Positions 4,202 through 39,521 of a stretch of DNA of 64,000 bases are shown piece by piece. The stretch lies in NCBI GenBank assembly GCA_017686895.1, contig GCA_017686895.1_4521.1; one strand, 5' to 3'. Every line of letters begins with the position of its first letter. The first letter of the stretch is position 1. The translations under genes were made by a program, and so were the position numbers. This DNA is from a phage. Below the pieces are notes generated by a model, which did no database searches, was not told where the DNA came from, and was given only the letters and a program-made list of their open reading frames with translations.

Positions 4202-4837
4202 ATGAAAACTACACCAATCACTATCGCTATTGACGCAATCGTAAAACAAGCTTCTTCTTTGGCTACTATGGCCAAAGTAATTAGTCAAAACCCTGCTCGT
4301 TATAATGCTATTCTAGAAACTCTTCGACGCCCTGGACTGAGTAATTATGAAAGCCGAGTAATTATTACAGGTGTTGGTAAGAACGCTAATATCGCAACTA
4401 AAGCTTCCGAGACTTTTGCTTCACTAGGTATTCCTAGCATGTATTTGAACACCGGGCATTATTCTCATGGCGACGCAGGGTTTATTGCACCTAATGATGT
4501 ATTAGTTCACATCAGTCGTTCTGGTAAGACTGAAGAAATGATAGGTGTTGCTAAACATCTTCGTATGATTCGTCCTCAGGTTAAACAGATTCTGTTACAT
4601 TGTAACCCTGACATTCCGCAAGAATACGAAGCTCTTTTTGATTATACGTTCTGTACAGGCATCGCGGTAGAGGTTGATGAGAATTCTCTGGCTCCGACCA
4701 TGTCCACTACATTGTTGTTAGCGCTTATCGATACGTTTGCTATCAACCTTTCGTCTGAACGTGGATTTACCTCTAATGACTTCCTTAAGTTCCACCCTGG
4801 TGGTGCACTAGGTGCCATGTTACGAGGCGAACAATGA
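4202..4837 (+). CDS. SIS-domain sugar-phosphate isomerase, arabinose-5-phosphate isomerase (KdsD/GutQ)-like
   Basis: SIS motifs VGKNANIATKASETF, HGDAGF, VLVHISRSGKTEE resemble KdsD-type API rather than GmhA. Confidence 0.7.
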   Translation: MKTTPITIAIDAIVKQASSLATMAKVISQNPARYNAILETLRRPGLSNYESRVIITGVGKNANIATKASETFASLGIPSMYLNTGHYSHGDAGFIAPNDVLVHISRSGKTEEMIGVAKHLRMIRPQVKQILLHCNPDIPQEYEALFDYTFCTGIAVEVDENSLAPTMSTTLLLALIDTFAINLSSERGFTSNDFLKFHPGGALGAMLRGEQ

Positions 4838-14270: not shown

Positions 14271-14299
14271 GTTTACTTCTCCAGTAGTTGTGTTATTAT
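14271..14299 (+). promoter_or_regulatory. Early-type promoter GTTTAC-N17-TATTAT embedded in a 12-bp inverted repeat
   Basis: Arms CTCCAGTAGTTG (14279-14290) and CAACTACTGGAG (14308-14319) flank the -10; the downstream arm contains the SD. Confidence 0.55.
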
Positions 14300-14325
14300 A
14301 GACCTATCAACTACTGGAGAACAAA

Positions 14326-23344: not shown

Positions 23345-23656
23345 ATGGTTTATGTATATGCAATAGTTTATCGAGATATGGAAGGATTTACTGTCCCGGT
23401 CCCACTTGATGAGCATCGTCCTGCAGTATTTTTTAGAAAGGATATTGCAGATAAAGTTTTCGATACTTTGAAAACACAGTATAAAACAGATTTAAAAACG
23501 GGAGTTCTAAGAATGGTCGAAACTCCGCGTAAGTTCTGGTTTAATAAGCTTGAAATGAAACACGTTAAACTAGATGCGGAGACGCAAAGATTGTATCAAC
23601 GAATCCTGGACACAGGCCGTATTGTTAGTATTCCAATTGCAGGGACTTTACGATGA
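23345..23656 (+). CDS. Hypothetical protein (dda.1 position)
   Basis: 103-aa ORF, ATGA overlap with dda. Confidence 0.5.
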   Translation: MVYVYAIVYRDMEGFTVPVPLDEHRPAVFFRKDIADKVFDTLKTQYKTDLKTGVLRMVETPRKFWFNKLEMKHVKLDAETQRLYQRILDTGRIVSIPIAGTLR

Positions 23657-24966
23657 CATTTGATGATTTGACTGAAGGCCAGAAAAACGCCTTCAACGTT
23701 GTTATGAAAGCTATTAAAGAAAAGAAACATCACGTAACTATTAATGGGCCTGCCGGTACAGGTAAAACAACCCTTACTAGATTCATCGTTGAAGCCCTTA
23801 TTTCTTCTGGAGAATCAGGTATTATTTTAGCAGCCCCTACACACGCTGCTAAAAAGGTTCTAAGCAAACTTGCAGGTCAAGAAGCATCGACTATTCATAG
23901 CATTCTTAAAATCAACCCAACTACATACGAAGAAAACGTATTGTTTGAGCAGAAAAAGGTTCCCGACTTAGCCTTGTGTCGTGTACTGTTATTTGATGAA
24001 GCGTCAATGTGCGACCGTCCTCTGTTTAAAATAATGTTAGCTAGTATCCCTAAATGGTGTACAGTAATTGGAATTGGTGACAGATGCCAGATTCGACCGG
24101 TAGACCCAGGCGAATCCACTGCGTATCTAAGTCCTTTCTTCACTCACAAAGACTTCGTGCAATGCAACCTTACAGAAGTTAAACGTAGCAATGCGCCAAT
24201 TATTGATGTTGCGACTGATATTCGTAATGGCAAATGGATTTACGATAAAGTAGTTGATGGGCATGGTGTTCATGGATATACAGACCTTAAATCGTATATG
24301 ATGAACTATTTTAACGTCGTTAAAACTCCTGAAGACCTTTTCGAAAATCGAATGATGGCATTCACAAATAAGTCGGTGGACAAGTTAAATTCAATTATTC
24401 GCCGAAAACTTCTTGAAACAGAAAAACCATTTATTAAAGACGAAGTCATTGTTCTACAAGAGCCATTTACTAAGACATATAAGCTAGACGGTAAAAATAT
24501 GACCGAAATGCTTTTCAATAATGGGCAATTCGTTCGTATTCGAGATGCTGTAGAAACGTCTACATTCGTTAAAGCACGTGGTGTTTCAGGCGAATATATG
24601 ATACGATACTGGAATCTTACAGTAGAAACATATGGTGATGATGAAGAATACATCCGCGAAGATATAAAGGTTATTTCTTCTGAAGAAGAGCTTTATAAAT
24701 TCAATTTGTTTTTGGCTAAGACCGCAGAAACATACAAATTTTGGAATAAAGGTGGTAAAGCTCCATGGAGCGAATTCTGGGATGCTAAACGTATGTTCAC
24801 TAAGGTGAAGGCGCTACCAGTATCAACCTTCCATAAGGCCCAGGGTATGTCTGTTGACACAGCCTTTGTTTATACACCGTGTATCCATTATGCTGATTCA
24901 GAATTAGCTAAACAGTTGTTGTATGTCGGCACAACTCGTGGTCGTTTTGACGTCCATTTTATTTGA
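23653..24966 (+). CDS. dda: DNA helicase Dda (SF1B)
   Basis: 437 aa; Walker A GPAGTGKTT, DEASM; syntenic. Confidence 0.9.
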   Translation: MTFDDLTEGQKNAFNVVMKAIKEKKHHVTINGPAGTGKTTLTRFIVEALISSGESGIILAAPTHAAKKVLSKLAGQEASTIHSILKINPTTYEENVLFEQKKVPDLALCRVLLFDEASMCDRPLFKIMLASIPKWCTVIGIGDRCQIRPVDPGESTAYLSPFFTHKDFVQCNLTEVKRSNAPIIDVATDIRNGKWIYDKVVDGHGVHGYTDLKSYMMNYFNVVKTPEDLFENRMMAFTNKSVDKLNSIIRRKLLETEKPFIKDEVIVLQEPFTKTYKLDGKNMTEMLFNNGQFVRIRDAVETSTFVKARGVSGEYMIRYWNLTVETYGDDEEYIREDIKVISSEEELYKFNLFLAKTAETYKFWNKGGKAPWSEFWDAKRMFTKVKALPVSTFHKAQGMSVDTAFVYTPCIHYADSELAKQLLYVGTTRGRFDVHFI

Positions 24967-24975
24967 GAGAAAATT

Positions 24976-25653
24976 ATGAGCACTGATGTTATTATAGATT
25001 TTGAAACATTCGGCAATACATCAAAAGCGGCTGTTATTGACCTTGCGGTTATTGCATATAATTCAGACCCTGAAGTTGTTGAATCATTTGAAGAACTTGT
25101 TCAACGAGGTAAGCGAATTAAATTTAATTTAGCTTCTCAAAAAGGGAAGCGAGTTTTCGCTAAATCCACTATGAAATGGTGGAAAGAACAATCAGCAGAA
25201 GCACGTAAAAACCTGGCCCCATCTGAAGACGATGTCACTACGCTTGAAGGCATTAAAATCTTTTTAGATTATTGTCGAGCTAATAAAGTTGACCAATGGA
25301 AATCACAGATGTGGTGCCGTGGTATGAGCTTTGACTTCCCGATATTGGTCGATTTGATTCGTGACCTCTATCGTGATGAAGGTGTTCTTGAACCAGATAT
25401 TGATACCGATAAATTAGAACCTGTTAAATTCTGGGCTCAACGCGATATTCGTACGGCAATCGAAGCTTACTCGTTGACACGAGGATTAAGTATGTGTCCA
25501 TTACCGATGGGTACTCTAAAAGGATTCGTTGCCCATGATAGTATTCATGATTGTGCTAAAGATATTTTGATGTTAAAATATGCTCAGCGTTATGCGCTTG
25601 GTCTTGAAGATGTACCTGAGAATCCTGACCCGTTAAGTGTAAAACAGCGATAA
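24976..25653 (+). CDS. dexA: Exonuclease A DexA
   Basis: 225 aa; IIDFE, RGMSFDFPILVDLIRD, AHDSIHDCAKDI match recalled T4 DexA. Confidence 0.9.
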   Translation: MSTDVIIDFETFGNTSKAAVIDLAVIAYNSDPEVVESFEELVQRGKRIKFNLASQKGKRVFAKSTMKWWKEQSAEARKNLAPSEDDVTTLEGIKIFLDYCRANKVDQWKSQMWCRGMSFDFPILVDLIRDLYRDEGVLEPDIDTDKLEPVKFWAQRDIRTAIEAYSLTRGLSMCPLPMGTLKGFVAHDSIHDCAKDILMLKYAQRYALGLEDVPENPDPLSVKQR

Positions 25654-25658
25654 AACCA

Positions 25659-25688
25659 GTTTACAACCAAGGATGGTTGGAGTATAAT
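25659..25688 (+). promoter_or_regulatory. Early-type promoter GTTTAC-N18-TATAAT
   Basis: Spacer ...CAAGGATGGTTGGAGTATAAT is near-duplicated at 26215-26245. Confidence 0.5.
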
Positions 25689-25718
25689 CTTTCTATCTTA
25701 ACCAAACAGGAAAACATT

Positions 25719-26213
25719 ATGAATATCAATACTACGGCTACTTACATCCTGAAAGATGAAAAACAAATCAACTGGTACGGTGCTTCAGTGCGAGCTTATG
25801 AAAAGTTTTGTGAAATTTTAGGTGCCACTCAAGGTAATAGTTTCACTATTGTTAACTTCATCAAACAAGTTGAAGGCCCTTGGTTATTCTTAGAAATTAA
25901 AAATTCATATGGTACAATTTCTACCACCGCCCTTCCAAGCACCGACTTTGAACTGTTGATTGAAGAAGTAGAACCCGTTAAAGATATCTGTATTGATATG
26001 GATATCGCTTGTATGTACGGTACTCTGATTAAGCCTATTGAGCCTACTGATTTGTTGTGTAAATATGTTTCAATTCGACGCCCATTCGCTGGTCCAGTAA
26101 ATGGATGGGTGACTGATCAGTGGATTGAAGACGGTGTTGAACTTCTGAACGTTGTTCATGCAGGTGATTTTAGTGTAGTTCCACGTAGTGCTGTGGTTAA
26201 TATCCTTAATTAA
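25719..26213 (+). CDS. Hypothetical protein, paralog family member 1
   Basis: Shares C-terminal motif W(I/V)EDG..L.N(I/V)V..GDF.VV with the next two genes. Confidence 0.5.
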   Translation: MNINTTATYILKDEKQINWYGASVRAYEKFCEILGATQGNSFTIVNFIKQVEGPWLFLEIKNSYGTISTTALPSTDFELLIEEVEPVKDICIDMDIACMYGTLIKPIEPTDLLCKYVSIRRPFAGPVNGWVTDQWIEDGVELLNVVHAGDFSVVPRSAVVNILN

Positions 26214-26214
26214 T

Positions 26215-26245
26215 GTTGTACATCCAAGGACGGGTGGAGTATAAT
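26215..26245 (+). promoter_or_regulatory. Promoter-like element GTTGTA...TATAAT (duplicate of the 25659 element)
   Basis: CAAGGACGGGTGGAGTATAAT nearly identical to the upstream copy. Confidence 0.4.
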
Positions 26246-26274
26246 GAATTCAACTTAAACAAAGAGAGAAAATT

Positions 26275-26760
26275 ATGAATCTTGGTATTATTGGTGAAAT
26301 CGTTCGCGTATCTAACAAATCTCGTTCTAAAGCAGCAGGAAAATTGGTCGAAGTTGTAAGTATTCAACTTAAAGAAGGCGTTAAAGATGAAGATTCTGAG
26401 GTAAAAGTTCGTATTATTCCTAGTCTTGGGTCGAGGGAAACTCAGTTCGCTTATGTTCGTGCAAAGTTCTTGGAAACTCCTGCGAGTAGTGCTTTTGCTT
26501 CAAGAGAAAAAGTTGAATCCACAGAGCCTAATGTACAGTTCAAATGGGCCTTGTGTAAAGGTGTTGAATTCCAGACTGATAAAGAATTTGACTTCATCGA
26601 TGAATATGGTTATCCAAGCACAACTGATACCATGTGTGGCTTCATTAGTGACCAATGGGTAGAAGATGGTGAAAAGTTATACAATATCGTATTCTTAGGT
26701 GACTTCCGAGTTGTTAAAGAATCCGAAATCACTCGCTATGTGTCTCCTCGTAAAGCTTAA
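26275..26760 (+). CDS. Hypothetical protein, paralog family member 2
   Basis: N-terminal SRSKAAGKLVEV and C-terminal ISDQWVEDGEKLYNIVFLGDFRVV shared with 26770-27189. Confidence 0.55.
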   Translation: MNLGIIGEIVRVSNKSRSKAAGKLVEVVSIQLKEGVKDEDSEVKVRIIPSLGSRETQFAYVRAKFLETPASSAFASREKVESTEPNVQFKWALCKGVEFQTDKEFDFIDEYGYPSTTDTMCGFISDQWVEDGEKLYNIVFLGDFRVVKESEITRYVSPRKA

Positions 26761-26769
26761 GGAATTATT

Positions 26770-27189
26770 ATGAATATTGTAAATCTCTCTACAGGTGATT
26801 ACGTATATGTATCTGTTGCTTCTCGCTCTAAAGTTGCCGGGAAGTTGGTTGAAGTTCTTTCTGTGAGTGATCCGGTTTTTGGTCGTAACCAAGTTAAAGT
26901 TCGTGATGCTAATGGTAATATTGGCTACGTCTCAAGCCAGTTCATTGAGCCAGAAGAAAAAGCGTTCAAATGGGGACTATGCAGATCAGTTTCTGTTGAA
27001 AAAGACCATGAATTCACTATTGCTGCGGCAACTGATGGAACGCCATGGAAAACTAAGCAAATCGCCGGATTTATTAGCGACCGTTGGGTAGAAGATGGTG
27101 TTAAGCTTTATAACATCGTTTTCGCTGGTCAGTTCATGGTAGTTCCTGAATTCCAAATTAAAAAATATAGCCCAGCTGCTTTCGCATAA
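26770..27189 (+). CDS. Hypothetical protein, paralog family member 3
   Basis: SRSKVAGKLVEV...ISDRWVEDGVKLYNIVFAGQFMVV. Confidence 0.55.
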   Translation: MNIVNLSTGDYVYVSVASRSKVAGKLVEVLSVSDPVFGRNQVKVRDANGNIGYVSSQFIEPEEKAFKWGLCRSVSVEKDHEFTIAAATDGTPWKTKQIAGFISDRWVEDGVKLYNIVFAGQFMVVPEFQIKKYSPAAFA

Positions 27190-27193
27190 AGTT

Positions 27194-27222
27194 GTTTACT
27201 TCTCCTCTGGTTTTGATATTAT
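27194..27222 (+). promoter_or_regulatory. Early-type promoter GTTTAC-N17-TATTAT embedded in an 11-bp inverted repeat
   Basis: Arms CTCCTCTGGTT (27202-27212) and AACCAGAGGAG (27232-27242); downstream arm is the SD of the 27249 gene. Confidence 0.55.
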
Positions 27223-27248
27223 AACCATATCAACCAGAGGAGAATAAT

Positions 27249-27773
27249 ATGTTAGTTTACCGCGTAGAACGTAGTTTTTGCACTCAACGTGAATCATTAC
27301 CAGGAATTGCTATCGAAGACGGTAAAGCCGTCAGAATTTGGGAAACCTCTTGGAATAAAGAACCTCGTTCGCCATACGGTTGGTCGGGCACCGACAACTC
27401 TGAAGAAACATGGGAGTTCCTTGATAAGCATGGAATACTCTCAGGTAACTTCTACCATCACGGCGACAACTATAATGTCCCTAATCGTCCTACAGTAAAT
27501 GAAGACAAACTTCTTGAACAAAATATCTTAAGATACCATAGAATTGAGTACACATTTGAATTGAGTGAAGATTGGGCTCAAGGGTTCTATTTTGGATTTG
27601 AAAGCGTTGACGCGGTTTATGCATGGTTTGATGACCAGGTGGATGTTGAACTCTTGAAAGCTAAAGGATACTACATCGCGGTCTATGAAGCACCTGATTT
27701 CATCCTCGGAAGTTGTCAATTAATGTTTAGACGTTCATTGGCAGAACAAGTTGATTTTATTTTGCTAAAATGA
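27249..27773 (+). CDS. Hypothetical protein
   Basis: 174-aa ORF. Confidence 0.5.
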   Translation: MLVYRVERSFCTQRESLPGIAIEDGKAVRIWETSWNKEPRSPYGWSGTDNSEETWEFLDKHGILSGNFYHHGDNYNVPNRPTVNEDKLLEQNILRYHRIEYTFELSEDWAQGFYFGFESVDAVYAWFDDQVDVELLKAKGYYIAVYEAPDFILGSCQLMFRRSLAEQVDFILLK

Positions 27774-28652: not shown

Positions 28653-29078
28653 ATGGCTTTTAAAGGTTTTGAAGTTGGTAAGAAATATCGTATTATCAAA
28701 GGTCAAGAAGATAATTTCTTGAGAATTCTTAATACGACCGGTAAACGTCTTAATACTAATCTGCATACTACTTTATTGTCCAAAGATTTTATTGTGGAAG
28801 AGATGATTGGTTACGGTGTTTCGGTTATTGCTGTAGAAGCCGTAGGCGATTATGGTCGAACTATTCATAGTATGCAAGGTGATATTCTGCTTTATGGTGC
28901 AGAATTTAAATTCTTTGAAGAAGTTCCGGAACCAGATACATCTGTCGATTTCAAAAAAGGCTCTATAGAATTTGTTGATGGATCGGTGATCGTATCAGGC
29001 GATGTGGTCATTACAGTTAAAAGTGAACAAGGGCGTTTGGCTGTAATTGATGCACTTCAGAAAATTAAATTTAAATAA
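28653..29078 (+). CDS. Hypothetical protein
   Basis: 141-aa ORF. Confidence 0.5.
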   Translation: MAFKGFEVGKKYRIIKGQEDNFLRILNTTGKRLNTNLHTTLLSKDFIVEEMIGYGVSVIAVEAVGDYGRTIHSMQGDILLYGAEFKFFEEVPEPDTSVDFKKGSIEFVDGSVIVSGDVVITVKSEQGRLAVIDALQKIKFK

Positions 29079-37184: not shown

Positions 37185-37221
37185 TTGTACAAACTCTTGA
37201 GAGCAGAGTATAATGCTCTCA
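37185..37221 (+). promoter_or_regulatory. Promoter-like element TTGTAC-N18-TATAAT with flanking inverted repeat
   Basis: TGAGAGC (37198-37204) and GCTCTCA (37215-37221) bracket the -10. Confidence 0.4.
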
Positions 37222-39492: not shown

Positions 39493-39521
39493 GTTTACAT
39501 GTGCTTCAAACGTGATATTAT
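39493..39521 (+). promoter_or_regulatory. Early-type promoter GTTTAC-N17-TATTAT with TGCTTCA in the spacer
   Basis: Followed by AGACCTATCAAAAC; near-duplicate of the promoter at 39814. Confidence 0.55.

What the first reader, a model, noticed from the sequence alone, without database searches (positions are those of the whole stretch)
25659..27189. Tandem array of three paralogous genes with a duplicated promoter
The genes at 25719, 26275 and 26770 share a C-terminal motif W(I/V)EDG.(K/E)L(Y/L)N(I/V)V..G(D/Q)F.VV, and the latter two share an N-terminal SRSK(A/V)AGKLVEV motif. The promoter-like sequence CAAGGATGGTTGGAGTATAAT at 25668 recurs as CAAGGACGGGTGGAGTATAAT at 26226. This points to a local gene amplification of an accessory function.
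Basis: seen in the sequence. Interest (0 to 1): 0.5.

Follow-up and report, generated by a model that had tools for sequence, protein, structure and literature searches.

The report
Known MotB-family gene trio, T4-like phage
Three neighbouring early genes of an RB69-like (T4-type) coliphage really are relatives that share a small C-terminal beta-barrel domain and two near-identical early promoters, but this motB.1 / motB / second-motB arrangement is old, conserved and already published, not a fresh gene amplification.

Summary
The genes at 25719, 26275 and 26770 all pass Pfam's cut-off for PF17613 (MotB). Genes 2 and 3 align end to end (41% identity, E 1e-28). Gene 1 shares only its C-terminal ~55 residues with them (E ~1e-10). 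The 21-nt promoter string occurs exactly twice in 64 kb (0 expected), inside a 53-nt repeat.

The window is a Mosigvirus, 99.4% identical to phage KMB38. RB69 has the same layout: dexA, motB.1, motB, a second motB, motB.2, cef, goF. Patterson-West et al. 2021 (PMC7827196) already reported that MotB and MotB.1 share a C-terminal domain with different N-terminal domains, proposed a duplication, and noted that RB69 has two motB plus one motB.1.

The duplication is ancient. Synonymous sites between paralogs are saturated, and gene 3 is under purifying selection (dN/dS 0.11 against RB69). Gene 1 carries a different N-terminal domain, so this is domain shuffling rather than simple amplification.

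The likely role, taken from T4 MotB, is early host-takeover proteins acting on nucleoid or H-NS-bound DNA. That role is inferred, not shown.

Small additions:
- This MotB is acidic, unlike T4's.
- The T4 reference motB.1 is frameshift-truncated.

Novelty: already known. Interest is low.

The parts
25660..25688 (+). Early promoter P1 (TTTACA, 17-nt spacer, TATAAT) driving gene 1. It is the first copy of the 53-nt repeat at 25662-25714.
   Evidence: The same sequence lies upstream of RB69 motB.1. No significant hairpin forms (z -0.2). Function as a promoter is inferred from the consensus match only.
25719..26213 (+). Gene 1: full-length MotB.1-type protein of 164 aa. It has an N-terminal beta-rich domain (residues 1-84), a disordered linker (85-109) and the shared C-terminal barrel (110-164, nt 26046-26210).
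   Evidence: phrog_2333 E 1.7e-82. Pfam PF17613 matches residues 84-159 only. It is 43% identical to T4 MotB.1. The AF2 model has pLDDT 77.6.
25992..26039 (+). Short conserved peptide IDMDIACMYGTLIKPI inside the predicted disordered linker of gene 1.
   Evidence: pLDDT is below 50 for residues 85-109. In the alignment of relatives the motif is in the linker in some proteins and at the extreme N-terminus in others. It occurs once in the window.
26217..26245 (+). Early promoter P2 (TGTACA, 17-nt spacer, TATAAT) driving genes 2 and 3. It is the second copy of the 53-nt repeat at 26219-26271.
   Evidence: It is conserved upstream of RB69 motB. No significant hairpin forms (z -0.5).
26275..26760 (+). 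Gene 2: MotB ortholog of 161 aa. It has a KOW/SH3-like N-terminal domain carrying SRSKAAGK, a disordered linker (70-85) and a C-terminal barrel (residues 89-161, nt 26539-26757).
   Evidence: PF17613 E 7.5e-54. phrog_1671 E 4.7e-69. It is 57% identical to T4 MotB. The AF2 model has pLDDT 78.9.
26770..27189 (+). Gene 3: second, shorter MotB paralog of 139 aa. The architecture is the same as gene 2, but the linker is nearly deleted. The C-terminal barrel is residues 66-139 (nt 26965-27186). There is no promoter of its own. The ribosome-binding site AAGGA overlaps the gene 2 stop codon, so it is probably co-transcribed and translationally coupled.
   Evidence: PF17613 E 5.3e-21. It is 41% identical to g2. 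Orthologs at 80% identity or more occur in 208 phage records. dN/dS is 0.11 against RB69. The sequence was read directly.
27195..27244 (+). Downstream boundary of the trio: an early promoter (TTTACT, 16-nt spacer, TATTAT) embedded in a 13-bp perfect stem-loop (27200-27212 and 27232-27244). This is a PeSL-type promoter/stem-loop cassette preceding the motB.2 homolog.
   Evidence: Inverted repeat I8. The RNA fold is -23.9 kcal/mol with z -6.45. It is 75% identical to the cassette at 14272. The PeSL concept comes from PMC4122927.
27249..27773 (+). Gene 4: homolog of T4 motB.2 (174 aa). It is not a member of the paralog family and is listed only as context.
   Evidence: phrog_1106 E 1.9e-45 and no Pfam hit. 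It aligns with T4 MotB.2 and lacks the shared motif.

Best explanation
This is the motB.1 / motB / second-motB early gene cluster of an RB69-like T4-type phage (genus Mosigvirus). It lies between dexA and motB.2-cef-goF in the dispensable early region.

All three proteins end in the same small five-stranded beta-barrel. Genes 2 and 3 join it to a KOW/SH3-like N-terminal barrel that carries the basic SRSKxAGK loop. Gene 1 joins it to a different, MotB.1-type N-terminal domain.

Two strong sigma-70 early promoters probably fire immediately after infection. P1 drives gene 1, and P2 drives genes 2 and 3 as a coupled pair.

By homology with T4 MotB, the KOW-type members most likely bind DNA with little sequence preference. 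They would remodel H-NS-coated nucleoid DNA during host takeover and give a modest fitness gain. The role of the MotB.1-type member is unknown.

The cluster arose by ancient tandem duplication of a promoter-plus-gene unit. Exchange of the N-terminal domain and loss of one promoter followed. It has since been kept by purifying selection.

What is shown: paralogy, domain layout, conservation and promoter repeats. What is inferred: promoter activity, co-transcription, DNA and H-NS activity, and the order of the evolutionary events.
For: - Identity of the phage and locus: 99.4% DNA identity to Mosigvirus KMB38. RB69 annotates the same gene order.
- Family membership: Pfam PF17613 and PHROG 'MotB-like transcriptional regulator' hits. 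g2 is 57% identical to T4 MotB and g1 is 43% identical to T4 MotB.1.
- Paralogy.
- Age and selection: dS is saturated between paralogs, and g3 has dN/dS 0.11 against RB69. The trio is also present in RB3.
- Promoters.
- Function in T4:
  - It copurifies with DNA and with H-NS.
  - It doubles burst size (PMC6070864).
  - It alters the H-NS footprint and up-regulates H-NS-repressed host genes.
  - MotB and MotB.1 share a C-terminal domain, and RB69 has 2 motB + 1 motB.1 (PMC7827196).
Against: - No function was tested here.
- T4 MotB is basic (pI 9.2), and its authors linked that to DNA binding. This MotB ortholog is acidic overall (pI 5.2; N-terminal domain +3, C-terminal domain -5) and gene 1 has pI 4.5.
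- pI ranges from 4.7 to 9.5 across the family, so non-specific DNA binding may not carry over to all members.
- T4 MotB.1 showed no phenotype in burst, plating or reporter assays (PMC12152347).
- The nearest relative, KMB38, has a nonsense codon in gene 3, so that copy can be lost or broken.
Confidence: 0.85

Rival explanations
1. Recent, lineage-specific tandem amplification of an accessory gene together with its promoter. This is the first reader's reading, and it resembles the copy-number gains seen under selection from host defence.
For: The three genes are adjacent and in the same orientation. The spacing of the two promoter-gene units is regular at 556-557 nt. Copy number differs between genera, at 1, 2 or 3.
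Against: The paralogs are only 41% identical (g2/g3) or share only about 55 aa (g1). dS is saturated. Identical trios occur in RB69 and RB3. The g3 orthologs form their own conserved group in 208 records under purifying selection.
Confidence: 0.03
2. The shared C-terminal barrel is not the nucleic-acid-binding part. Instead it is a common anchoring or oligomerisation module, Tudor/SH3-like, that brings different N-terminal effector domains to one conserved partner such as H-NS, RNA polymerase or each other. On this reading the trio is a modular toolkit rather than redundant copies.
For: - The MotB.1-type C-terminal domain is nearly invariant across genera, while at least four different N-terminal architectures are fused to it (lengths 143-252 aa).
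- The domain is acidic in g1 and g2, which fits poorly with DNA binding.
- Its best structural matches are protein- or peptide-binding Tudor, chromo and PWWP barrels.
- T4 MotB.1 runs partly as a dimer (PMC12152347).
Against: No partner is known. KOW, PWWP and Tudor barrels also bind nucleic acids. The T4 work could not assign DNA binding to either domain (PMC7827196). There is no multimer prediction or experiment here.
Confidence: 0.25
3. The two promoters look alike only because all T4-type early promoters share a long consensus, or because promoter cassettes are homogenised by recombination. On this reading they were not co-duplicated with the genes.
For: Early promoters in this window fall into sub-families. 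Two other pairs are as similar or more so: 39494/39815 at 75% and 14272/27195 at 75%. One of those pairs is 13 kb apart and flanks unrelated genes. PeSL cassettes are known recombination points (PMC4122927). In T4 and RB3 a different promoter sits upstream of motB.
Against: The similarity covers the non-consensus spacer (13 of 15) and continues through the 5' leader to the start codon, 53 nt at 75%. The unit spacing equals one gene length. Neither copy has the PeSL stem-loop.
Confidence: 0.2
4. The shared motifs are chance or low-complexity matches and the genes are unrelated.
For: None was found.
Against: E-values run from 1e-10 to 1e-28. All three pass the Pfam cut-off. A profile of the three C-terminal regions recovers only MotB and MotB.1 relatives from 1.84 billion proteins.
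Confidence: 0.01

Closest known systems
RB69 locus RB69p013-RB69p010 (motB.1, 29-aa ORF, motB, second MotB-like gene), NC_004928
   Same: RB69 has the same genes in the same order between dexA and motB.2-cef-goF, with the same P1 and P2 promoter sequences. g3 is 94% identical at the DNA level. PMC7827196 explicitly lists RB69 as having two motB and one motB.1.
   Different: In RB69 motB.1 is split into a 132-aa ORF plus a 29-aa ORF that carries the core motif. In the window it is one intact 164-aa ORF. The window's MotB is 161 aa against 151 aa and 80% identical.
Bacteriophage T4 MotB (PF17613; Patterson-West 2018 and 2021; Son et al. 2021, cited in PMC12152347 ref. 23)
   Same: g2 is 57% identical over its full length. 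It has the same two-domain layout, the same early-region position, and a conserved SRSKAAGKLVEVVSIQLK N-terminal segment and DQWVEDGxKLYN core.
   Different: T4 MotB has pI 9.2 and the window's MotB has pI 5.2. T4 has only one motB. The T4 motB promoter is a different cassette. The published prediction for the C-terminal domain was an OB-fold, whereas the models here look SH3/Tudor-like.
Bacteriophage T4 MotB.1 (LSm-like fold family of Kim et al. 2025, PMC12152347)
   Same: g1 is 43% identical, with the same N-terminal domain type and the same start of the C-terminal domain. Foldseek finds the T4 protein P39415 at E 1e-9.
   Different: The T4 reference protein stops at residue 119 because of one extra G. 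The window protein, T4T (143 aa) and most relatives carry the complete C-terminal barrel. g1 also has a ~20-aa linker insertion containing the IDMDIACMYGTLIKPI motif.
PeSL promoter / stem-loop cassettes of T4-type phages (Arbiol 2010, PMC2839356; Comeau 2014, PMC4122927)
   Same: The element at 27195-27244 combines an early promoter with a strong stem-loop. It sits at a point where gene order differs between phages: motB.2 comes before the trio in T4 and RB3, and after it here and in RB69.
Tandem SH3-like barrels (53BP1 tandem Tudor, Spt5 KOW pairs, KIN17 SH3-like tandem)
   Different: Sequence identity is only 9-20%. There is no evidence of common descent, of methyl-lysine binding or of ribosome or RNA polymerase binding. 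This is a resemblance of fold only.

Membership tests
MotB family (Pfam PF17613) | Whole-protein score above Pfam's gathering cut-off (25 bits) | tested here: met
   g1 scores 35.1 bits (C-terminal half only), g2 scores 182.4 and g3 scores 75.6.
MotB family (Pfam PF17613) | N-terminal KOW-like domain with the conserved SRSKxAGK segment (category 1 of PMC7827196) | tested here: met
   Met for g2 and g3. Not met for g1, whose N-terminal domain is of the MotB.1 type.
MotB family (Pfam PF17613) | Conserved C-terminal core motif DQW(V/I)EDGxxLxN(V/I)V | tested here: met
   Present in all three proteins, with 16 invariant columns in the three-way alignment.
MotB family (Pfam PF17613) | Position in the early, dispensable dda-dexA...cef-goF-39 region of a Tevenvirinae genome | tested here: met
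MotB family (Pfam PF17613) | Tight non-specific DNA binding, association with H-NS, toxicity in E. coli | not testable with these tools
   This is known only for T4 MotB (PMC6070864, PMC7827196). The basic charge that T4 authors linked to binding is absent from g2 (pI 5.2).
MotB C-terminal domain as a cold-shock-type OB-fold (prediction of PMC7827196) | Five-stranded OB barrel with a helix between strands 3 and 4, and best structural neighbours that are OB-folds | tested here: inconclusive
MotB.1 / LSm-like fold family (PMC12152347) | Sequence homology to T4 MotB.1 across the N-terminal domain | tested here: met
   g1 only: 43% identity, phrog_2333 E 1.7e-82, Foldseek hit to P39415 at E 1e-9.
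MotB.1 / LSm-like fold family (PMC12152347) | N-terminal bent five-stranded antiparallel sheet (LSm-like) | tested here: inconclusive
   The model has strands 8-11, 42-49, 55-61, 67-73 and 80-82 plus helix 26-37, at pLDDT about 80. This is compatible, but no domain-level comparison with Hfq or other LSm proteins was run.
T4-type early promoter | (G)TTTAC(A) -35 hexamer, 17 +/-1 spacer, TATAAT -10 hexamer, upstream of an early gene | tested here: met
   P1 matches 11 of 12 positions and P2 matches 10 of 12, both with a 17-nt spacer. Activity was not tested.
PeSL cassette | Early promoter combined with a stable stem-loop | tested here: not met
   P1 and P2 fold with z -0.2 and -0.5. The feature is met by the neighbouring element at 27195-27244 (z -6.45).

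The most novel reading that the evidence does not exclude
The shared C-terminal barrel may be a Tudor/SH3-like anchoring or dimerisation module rather than the predicted DNA-binding OB-fold. T4-like phages would fuse it to interchangeable N-terminal effector domains: KOW-like, one or two LSm-like domains, or extra N-terminal modules. Together with a mobile short peptide (IDMDIACMYGTLIKPI), this would let a phage with three copies send three different activities to the same host target. It would also mean that the T4 MotB.1 studied so far, at 119 aa, lacks most of this module.
Probability: 0.2. Interest if true: 0.45.

Novelty: already known. Interest (0 to 1): 0.15.

Why it matters
It matters little as a discovery. 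The gene trio, the shared C-terminal domain and the duplication idea are in the RB69 annotation and in PMC7827196.

It has some practical value for people working on T4 early host-takeover proteins:
- The intact 164-aa MotB.1-type protein here shows what the full-length family member looks like. So do T4T and most relatives. The T4 reference ORF used experimentally is cut short by a 1-nt insertion.
- Structure prediction favours a tandem SH3/Tudor/KOW-like architecture over KOW + OB.
- The strong charge differences between MotB orthologs warn against carrying 'basic non-specific DNA binder' over to the whole family.

Tried and rejected
- A search for further copies of the motif in the window found none. 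I used tblastn with the three cores and a regular expression on six frames.
- The fourth gene (27249-27773), which some records annotate as 'transcriptional regulator', is the motB.2 homolog and lacks the motif.
- P1 and P2 were tested as PeSL stem-loop cassettes and rejected.
- A sequence search of solved structures gave nothing usable. The best hit had E 0.35 and was unrelated.
- BLASTP between the g1 N-terminal domain, GoF and the 141-aa ORF at 28653 gave E 0.03-0.04, not significant. No claim of extra paralogs is made.
- Rfam and tRNA scans of the window found nothing.
- A profile search of 1.84 billion representatives for the C-terminal domain outside T4-like phages found 29 hits in all. 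Twenty-six were single-stretch matches of 43-251 aa. Nine of them are proteins already recovered in the two homolog searches. The other three were long multi-repeat proteins with weak E-values that look spurious. No wider family emerged.
- Son et al. 2021 (PMC8450097) is not held in the library. It is cited only through the reference list of PMC12152347.
Full report
**What is there**

The window is a T4-type phage genome of the genus Mosigvirus. The 2.1 kb around the finding is 99.4% identical to Escherichia phage vB-Eco-KMB38, and 629 phage records match it.

The local gene order on the + strand is as follows:
- dda helicase, 23653-24966
- dexA exonuclease, 24976-25653
- gene 1, 25719-26213, 164 aa
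- gene 2, 26275-26760, 161 aa
- gene 3, 26770-27189, 139 aa
- a motB.2 homolog, 27249-27773
- cef, then goF

RB69, the type Mosigvirus, is annotated with exactly this order: dexA, motB.1, motB, a second 'MotB-like' gene of 139 aa, motB.2, cef, goF.

**Checking the observation**

The only correction is that the second promoter string starts at 26225, not 26226.

The similarity is far beyond chance:
- g2 vs g3 gives 41% identity over 150 columns, E 1e-28.
- g1 vs g2 gives E 3e-10 and g1 vs g3 gives E 2e-10 over the last 29-36 residues.
- All three exceed Pfam's cut-off for PF17613 'MotB, modifier of transcription'.

It covers the entire C-terminal domain, which is about 55 aa in g1. In g2 and g3 the domain is 73-74 aa because of a ~14-residue insertion. 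Only these three copies exist in the 64 kb window.

The 21-nt promoter string occurs twice with 2 or fewer mismatches, against 0.00 expected. It lies inside a 53-nt direct repeat at 75% identity that runs from the -35 hexamer through the leader to the ribosome-binding site. The start-to-start spacing is 557 nt, which is one gene length.

**What the genes are**

- Gene 2 is the MotB ortholog. It is 57% identical to T4 MotB over its full length, with PF17613 E 7.5e-54 and phrog_1671 E 4.7e-69.
- Gene 3 is a second, shorter MotB with the same two domains and an almost deleted linker.
- Gene 1 is the MotB.1-type protein. It matches phrog_2333 at E 1.7e-82 and is 43% identical to T4 MotB.1. Its N-terminal domain is unrelated in sequence to that of MotB.

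All of this is already in the literature. Patterson-West et al. 2021 (PMC7827196) made these points:
- MotB homologs fall into categories that share the C-terminal domain but differ in the N-terminal domain.
- T4 MotB.1 belongs to one of these categories.
[quoted passage not shown] '

Kim et al. 2025 (PMC12152347) describe the MotB.1 N-terminal domain as an LSm-like beta fold shared with GoF and Frd.2.

**Age and distribution**

The copies are old:
- DNA similarity between them survives only as 92 nt at 72% in the C-terminal core.
- Synonymous divergence between cores is saturated. dS is 1.6 for g2/g3 and >2.5 or incalculable for comparisons with g1.
- Gene 3 is under purifying selection, with dN/dS 0.11 against RB69.

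tblastn with the MotB.1-type C-terminal domain finds 781 phage records and 1685 places. Copy number varies by lineage:
- Mosigvirus records have three places.
- Most Tequatrovirus records have two.
- A Klebsiella Marfavirus has one.

Orthologs of gene 3 at 80% identity or more occur in 208 of 761 matching records. One of these is the Tequatrovirus RB3, whose order is dexA, motB.2, motB.1, motB, then the 139-aa copy. T4 lacks the third copy.

The trio is therefore a conserved, vertically and horizontally shared module. It is not a private amplification.

In the nearest relative, KMB38, a single G-to-A change at the position equivalent to 27047 turns W93 of gene 3 into a stop codon. That copy can therefore be lost or broken.

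**Promoters**

P1 is at 25660-25688 (TTTACA, 17-nt spacer, TATAAT) and P2 is at 26217-26245 (TGTACA, 17-nt spacer, TATAAT). They are the two best sigma-70 matches in the 7 kb scanned. Both are conserved upstream of RB69 motB.1 and motB.

Among 14 clear early promoters in the window, the P1/P2 pair ranks 3rd of 91 pairs. It shows 70% identity over 60 nt against a mean of 47%, and 13 of 15 spacer positions match. The resemblance therefore exceeds the early-promoter consensus.

It is not unique, however. The pairs 39494/39815 and 14272/27195 are equally or more alike. This fits the known tendency of T4-type early promoter cassettes (PeSLs) to be exchanged by recombination (PMC4122927).

P1 and P2 themselves lack the PeSL stem-loop, with fold z-scores of -0.2 and -0.5. 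The element just after gene 3 (27195-27244) is a textbook PeSL at -23.9 kcal/mol and z -6.45. It precedes motB.2. That gene sits before the trio in T4 and RB3 and after it here and in RB69, consistent with cassette shuffling.

Gene 3 has no promoter. It starts 9 nt after the gene 2 stop codon, and its AAGGA ribosome-binding site overlaps that stop. From this I infer a P2-driven g2-g3 bicistron.

**Structure**

The AlphaFold2 models were built from alignments of 26 and 36 homologs. Mean pLDDT is 77.6 for g1 and 78.9 for g2. Each shows two beta domains joined by a disordered linker, at residues 85-109 in g1 and 70-85 in g2.

The C-terminal domains are predicted with confidence (pLDDT about 87-93). 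They have four strands, a 3-residue helix and a fifth strand.

**Mechanism**

For T4 MotB the published facts are as follows (PMC6070864; PMC7827196):
- early expression
- toxicity in E. coli
- tight non-specific DNA binding
- copurification with H-NS and StpA
- a two-fold burst-size benefit
- an altered H-NS footprint
- up-regulation of 75 host genes, a third of them from the H-NS regulon

A later paper reports DNA compaction and de-repression of H-NS silencing. I know it only from its title, as cited in PMC12152347 ref. 23.

By homology I assign the same kind of role to genes 2 and 3. The function of gene 1 stays open, because T4 MotB.1 showed no phenotype.

There is a caveat. T4 MotB is basic (pI 9.2), but gene 2's product has pI 5.2 (N-terminal domain +3, C-terminal domain -5). 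Gene 3's product has pI 7.8 and gene 1's has pI 4.5. Across 120 homologs the pI ranges from 4.7 to 9.5.

The basic, invariant SRSKxAGK loop of the KOW-like domain is the more plausible nucleic-acid contact. The acidic, highly conserved C-terminal barrel is fused to at least four different N-terminal architectures. It could instead be a partner-binding or dimerisation module. This is a hypothesis, not a result.

**Breadth of the family**

A profile of the three C-terminal regions was searched against 1.84 billion cluster representatives. It recovers only 29 proteins. Twenty-six are single-stretch matches of 43-251 aa, and nine of those are proteins already recovered in the two homolog searches. 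The other three are long multi-repeat proteins with weak E-values that look spurious. The domain is confined to a narrow group of phages.

**Verdict**

It is wrong in its emphasis, because this is an ancient, conserved, domain-shuffled cluster rather than a local amplification. The feature is already known, and interest is low.

Noticed in passing
L002 (T4 NC_000866) about 3310-3220, minus strand; compare window 26121-26210: The T4 reference motB.1 (119 aa) ends early because of one extra G ('tggattGgaagat' against 'tggattgaagac' in the window). The rest of the conserved barrel, EDGVELLNVVHAGEYSVVPRSAVVAILN*, follows in the next frame. T4T annotates an intact 143-aa gene, and a 143-aa form is seen on 256 contigs. 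RB69's separate 29-aa ORF is probably the same kind of split. Published MotB.1 experiments used the 13.8-kDa form.
   Followed up: partly
window 27195-27244 and 14272-14320: These are PeSL-type elements, each an early promoter inside a strong stem-loop whose 3' arm contains the Shine-Dalgarno sequence of the next gene. The one at 27200-27244 folds at -23.9 kcal/mol (z -6.45). The two elements are 75% identical although 13 kb apart.
   Followed up: partly
window 27249-27773 compared with L002, L003 and L005: The motB.2 gene with its PeSL promoter sits after the MotB trio here and in RB69. In T4 and RB3 it sits directly after dexA, before motB.1. This looks like a cassette transposition between otherwise collinear genomes.
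   Followed up: partly
window 25992-26039 (gene 1 residues 92-107): The peptide IDMDIACMYGTLIKPI lies in a predicted disordered linker. In other MotB.1-type proteins the same motif is at the extreme N-terminus, and in still others it is absent. It behaves like a mobile short linear motif, and its partner is unknown.
   Followed up: partly
window 27047 compared with L001 (KMB38) 4647-4649: The closest relative (99.4% identical) has a single G-to-A change that makes gene 3 codon 93 a stop, so it is annotated as 92 aa. This is either recent inactivation or a sequencing error.
   Followed up: yes
window 26275-26760 and homologs P0001-P0120: MotB orthologs differ greatly in charge. The T4 type has pI 9.2-9.4, this phage's has pI 5.2, and many 163-aa Dhakavirus/Gaprivervirus-like forms have pI 5.5-6.4. 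The 'highly basic' property stressed for T4 MotB is not a family trait.
   Followed up: partly
window 15790, 36413, 36925 and 56891: A sub-family of early promoters shares an inverted repeat that brackets the -10 hexamer (TAGGACTATGATATAGTAGTCCTATC). Another near-identical pair lies at 39494 and 39815. Early promoters in this genome come in recognisable sequence classes.
   Followed up: no
L002 3225-3137 and L005 1940-2023 compared with window 26207-26280: Upstream of motB in T4 and RB3 a different promoter (GTTTACAAACTCTTGGGACCAGAGTATAAT, like the window's promoter at 37186) has been placed in front of a remnant of the P2 -10 region (GTGGAGTATAAA). This gives two tandem -10 elements.
   Followed up: partly
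alignment A2 (P0215, P0152, P0167, P0176): Some relatives of gene 1 are 241-252 aa long. They carry either two tandem LSm-like modules or an additional N-terminal domain in front of the same C-terminal barrel. This is more architectures than the four categories published in 2021.
   Followed up: no
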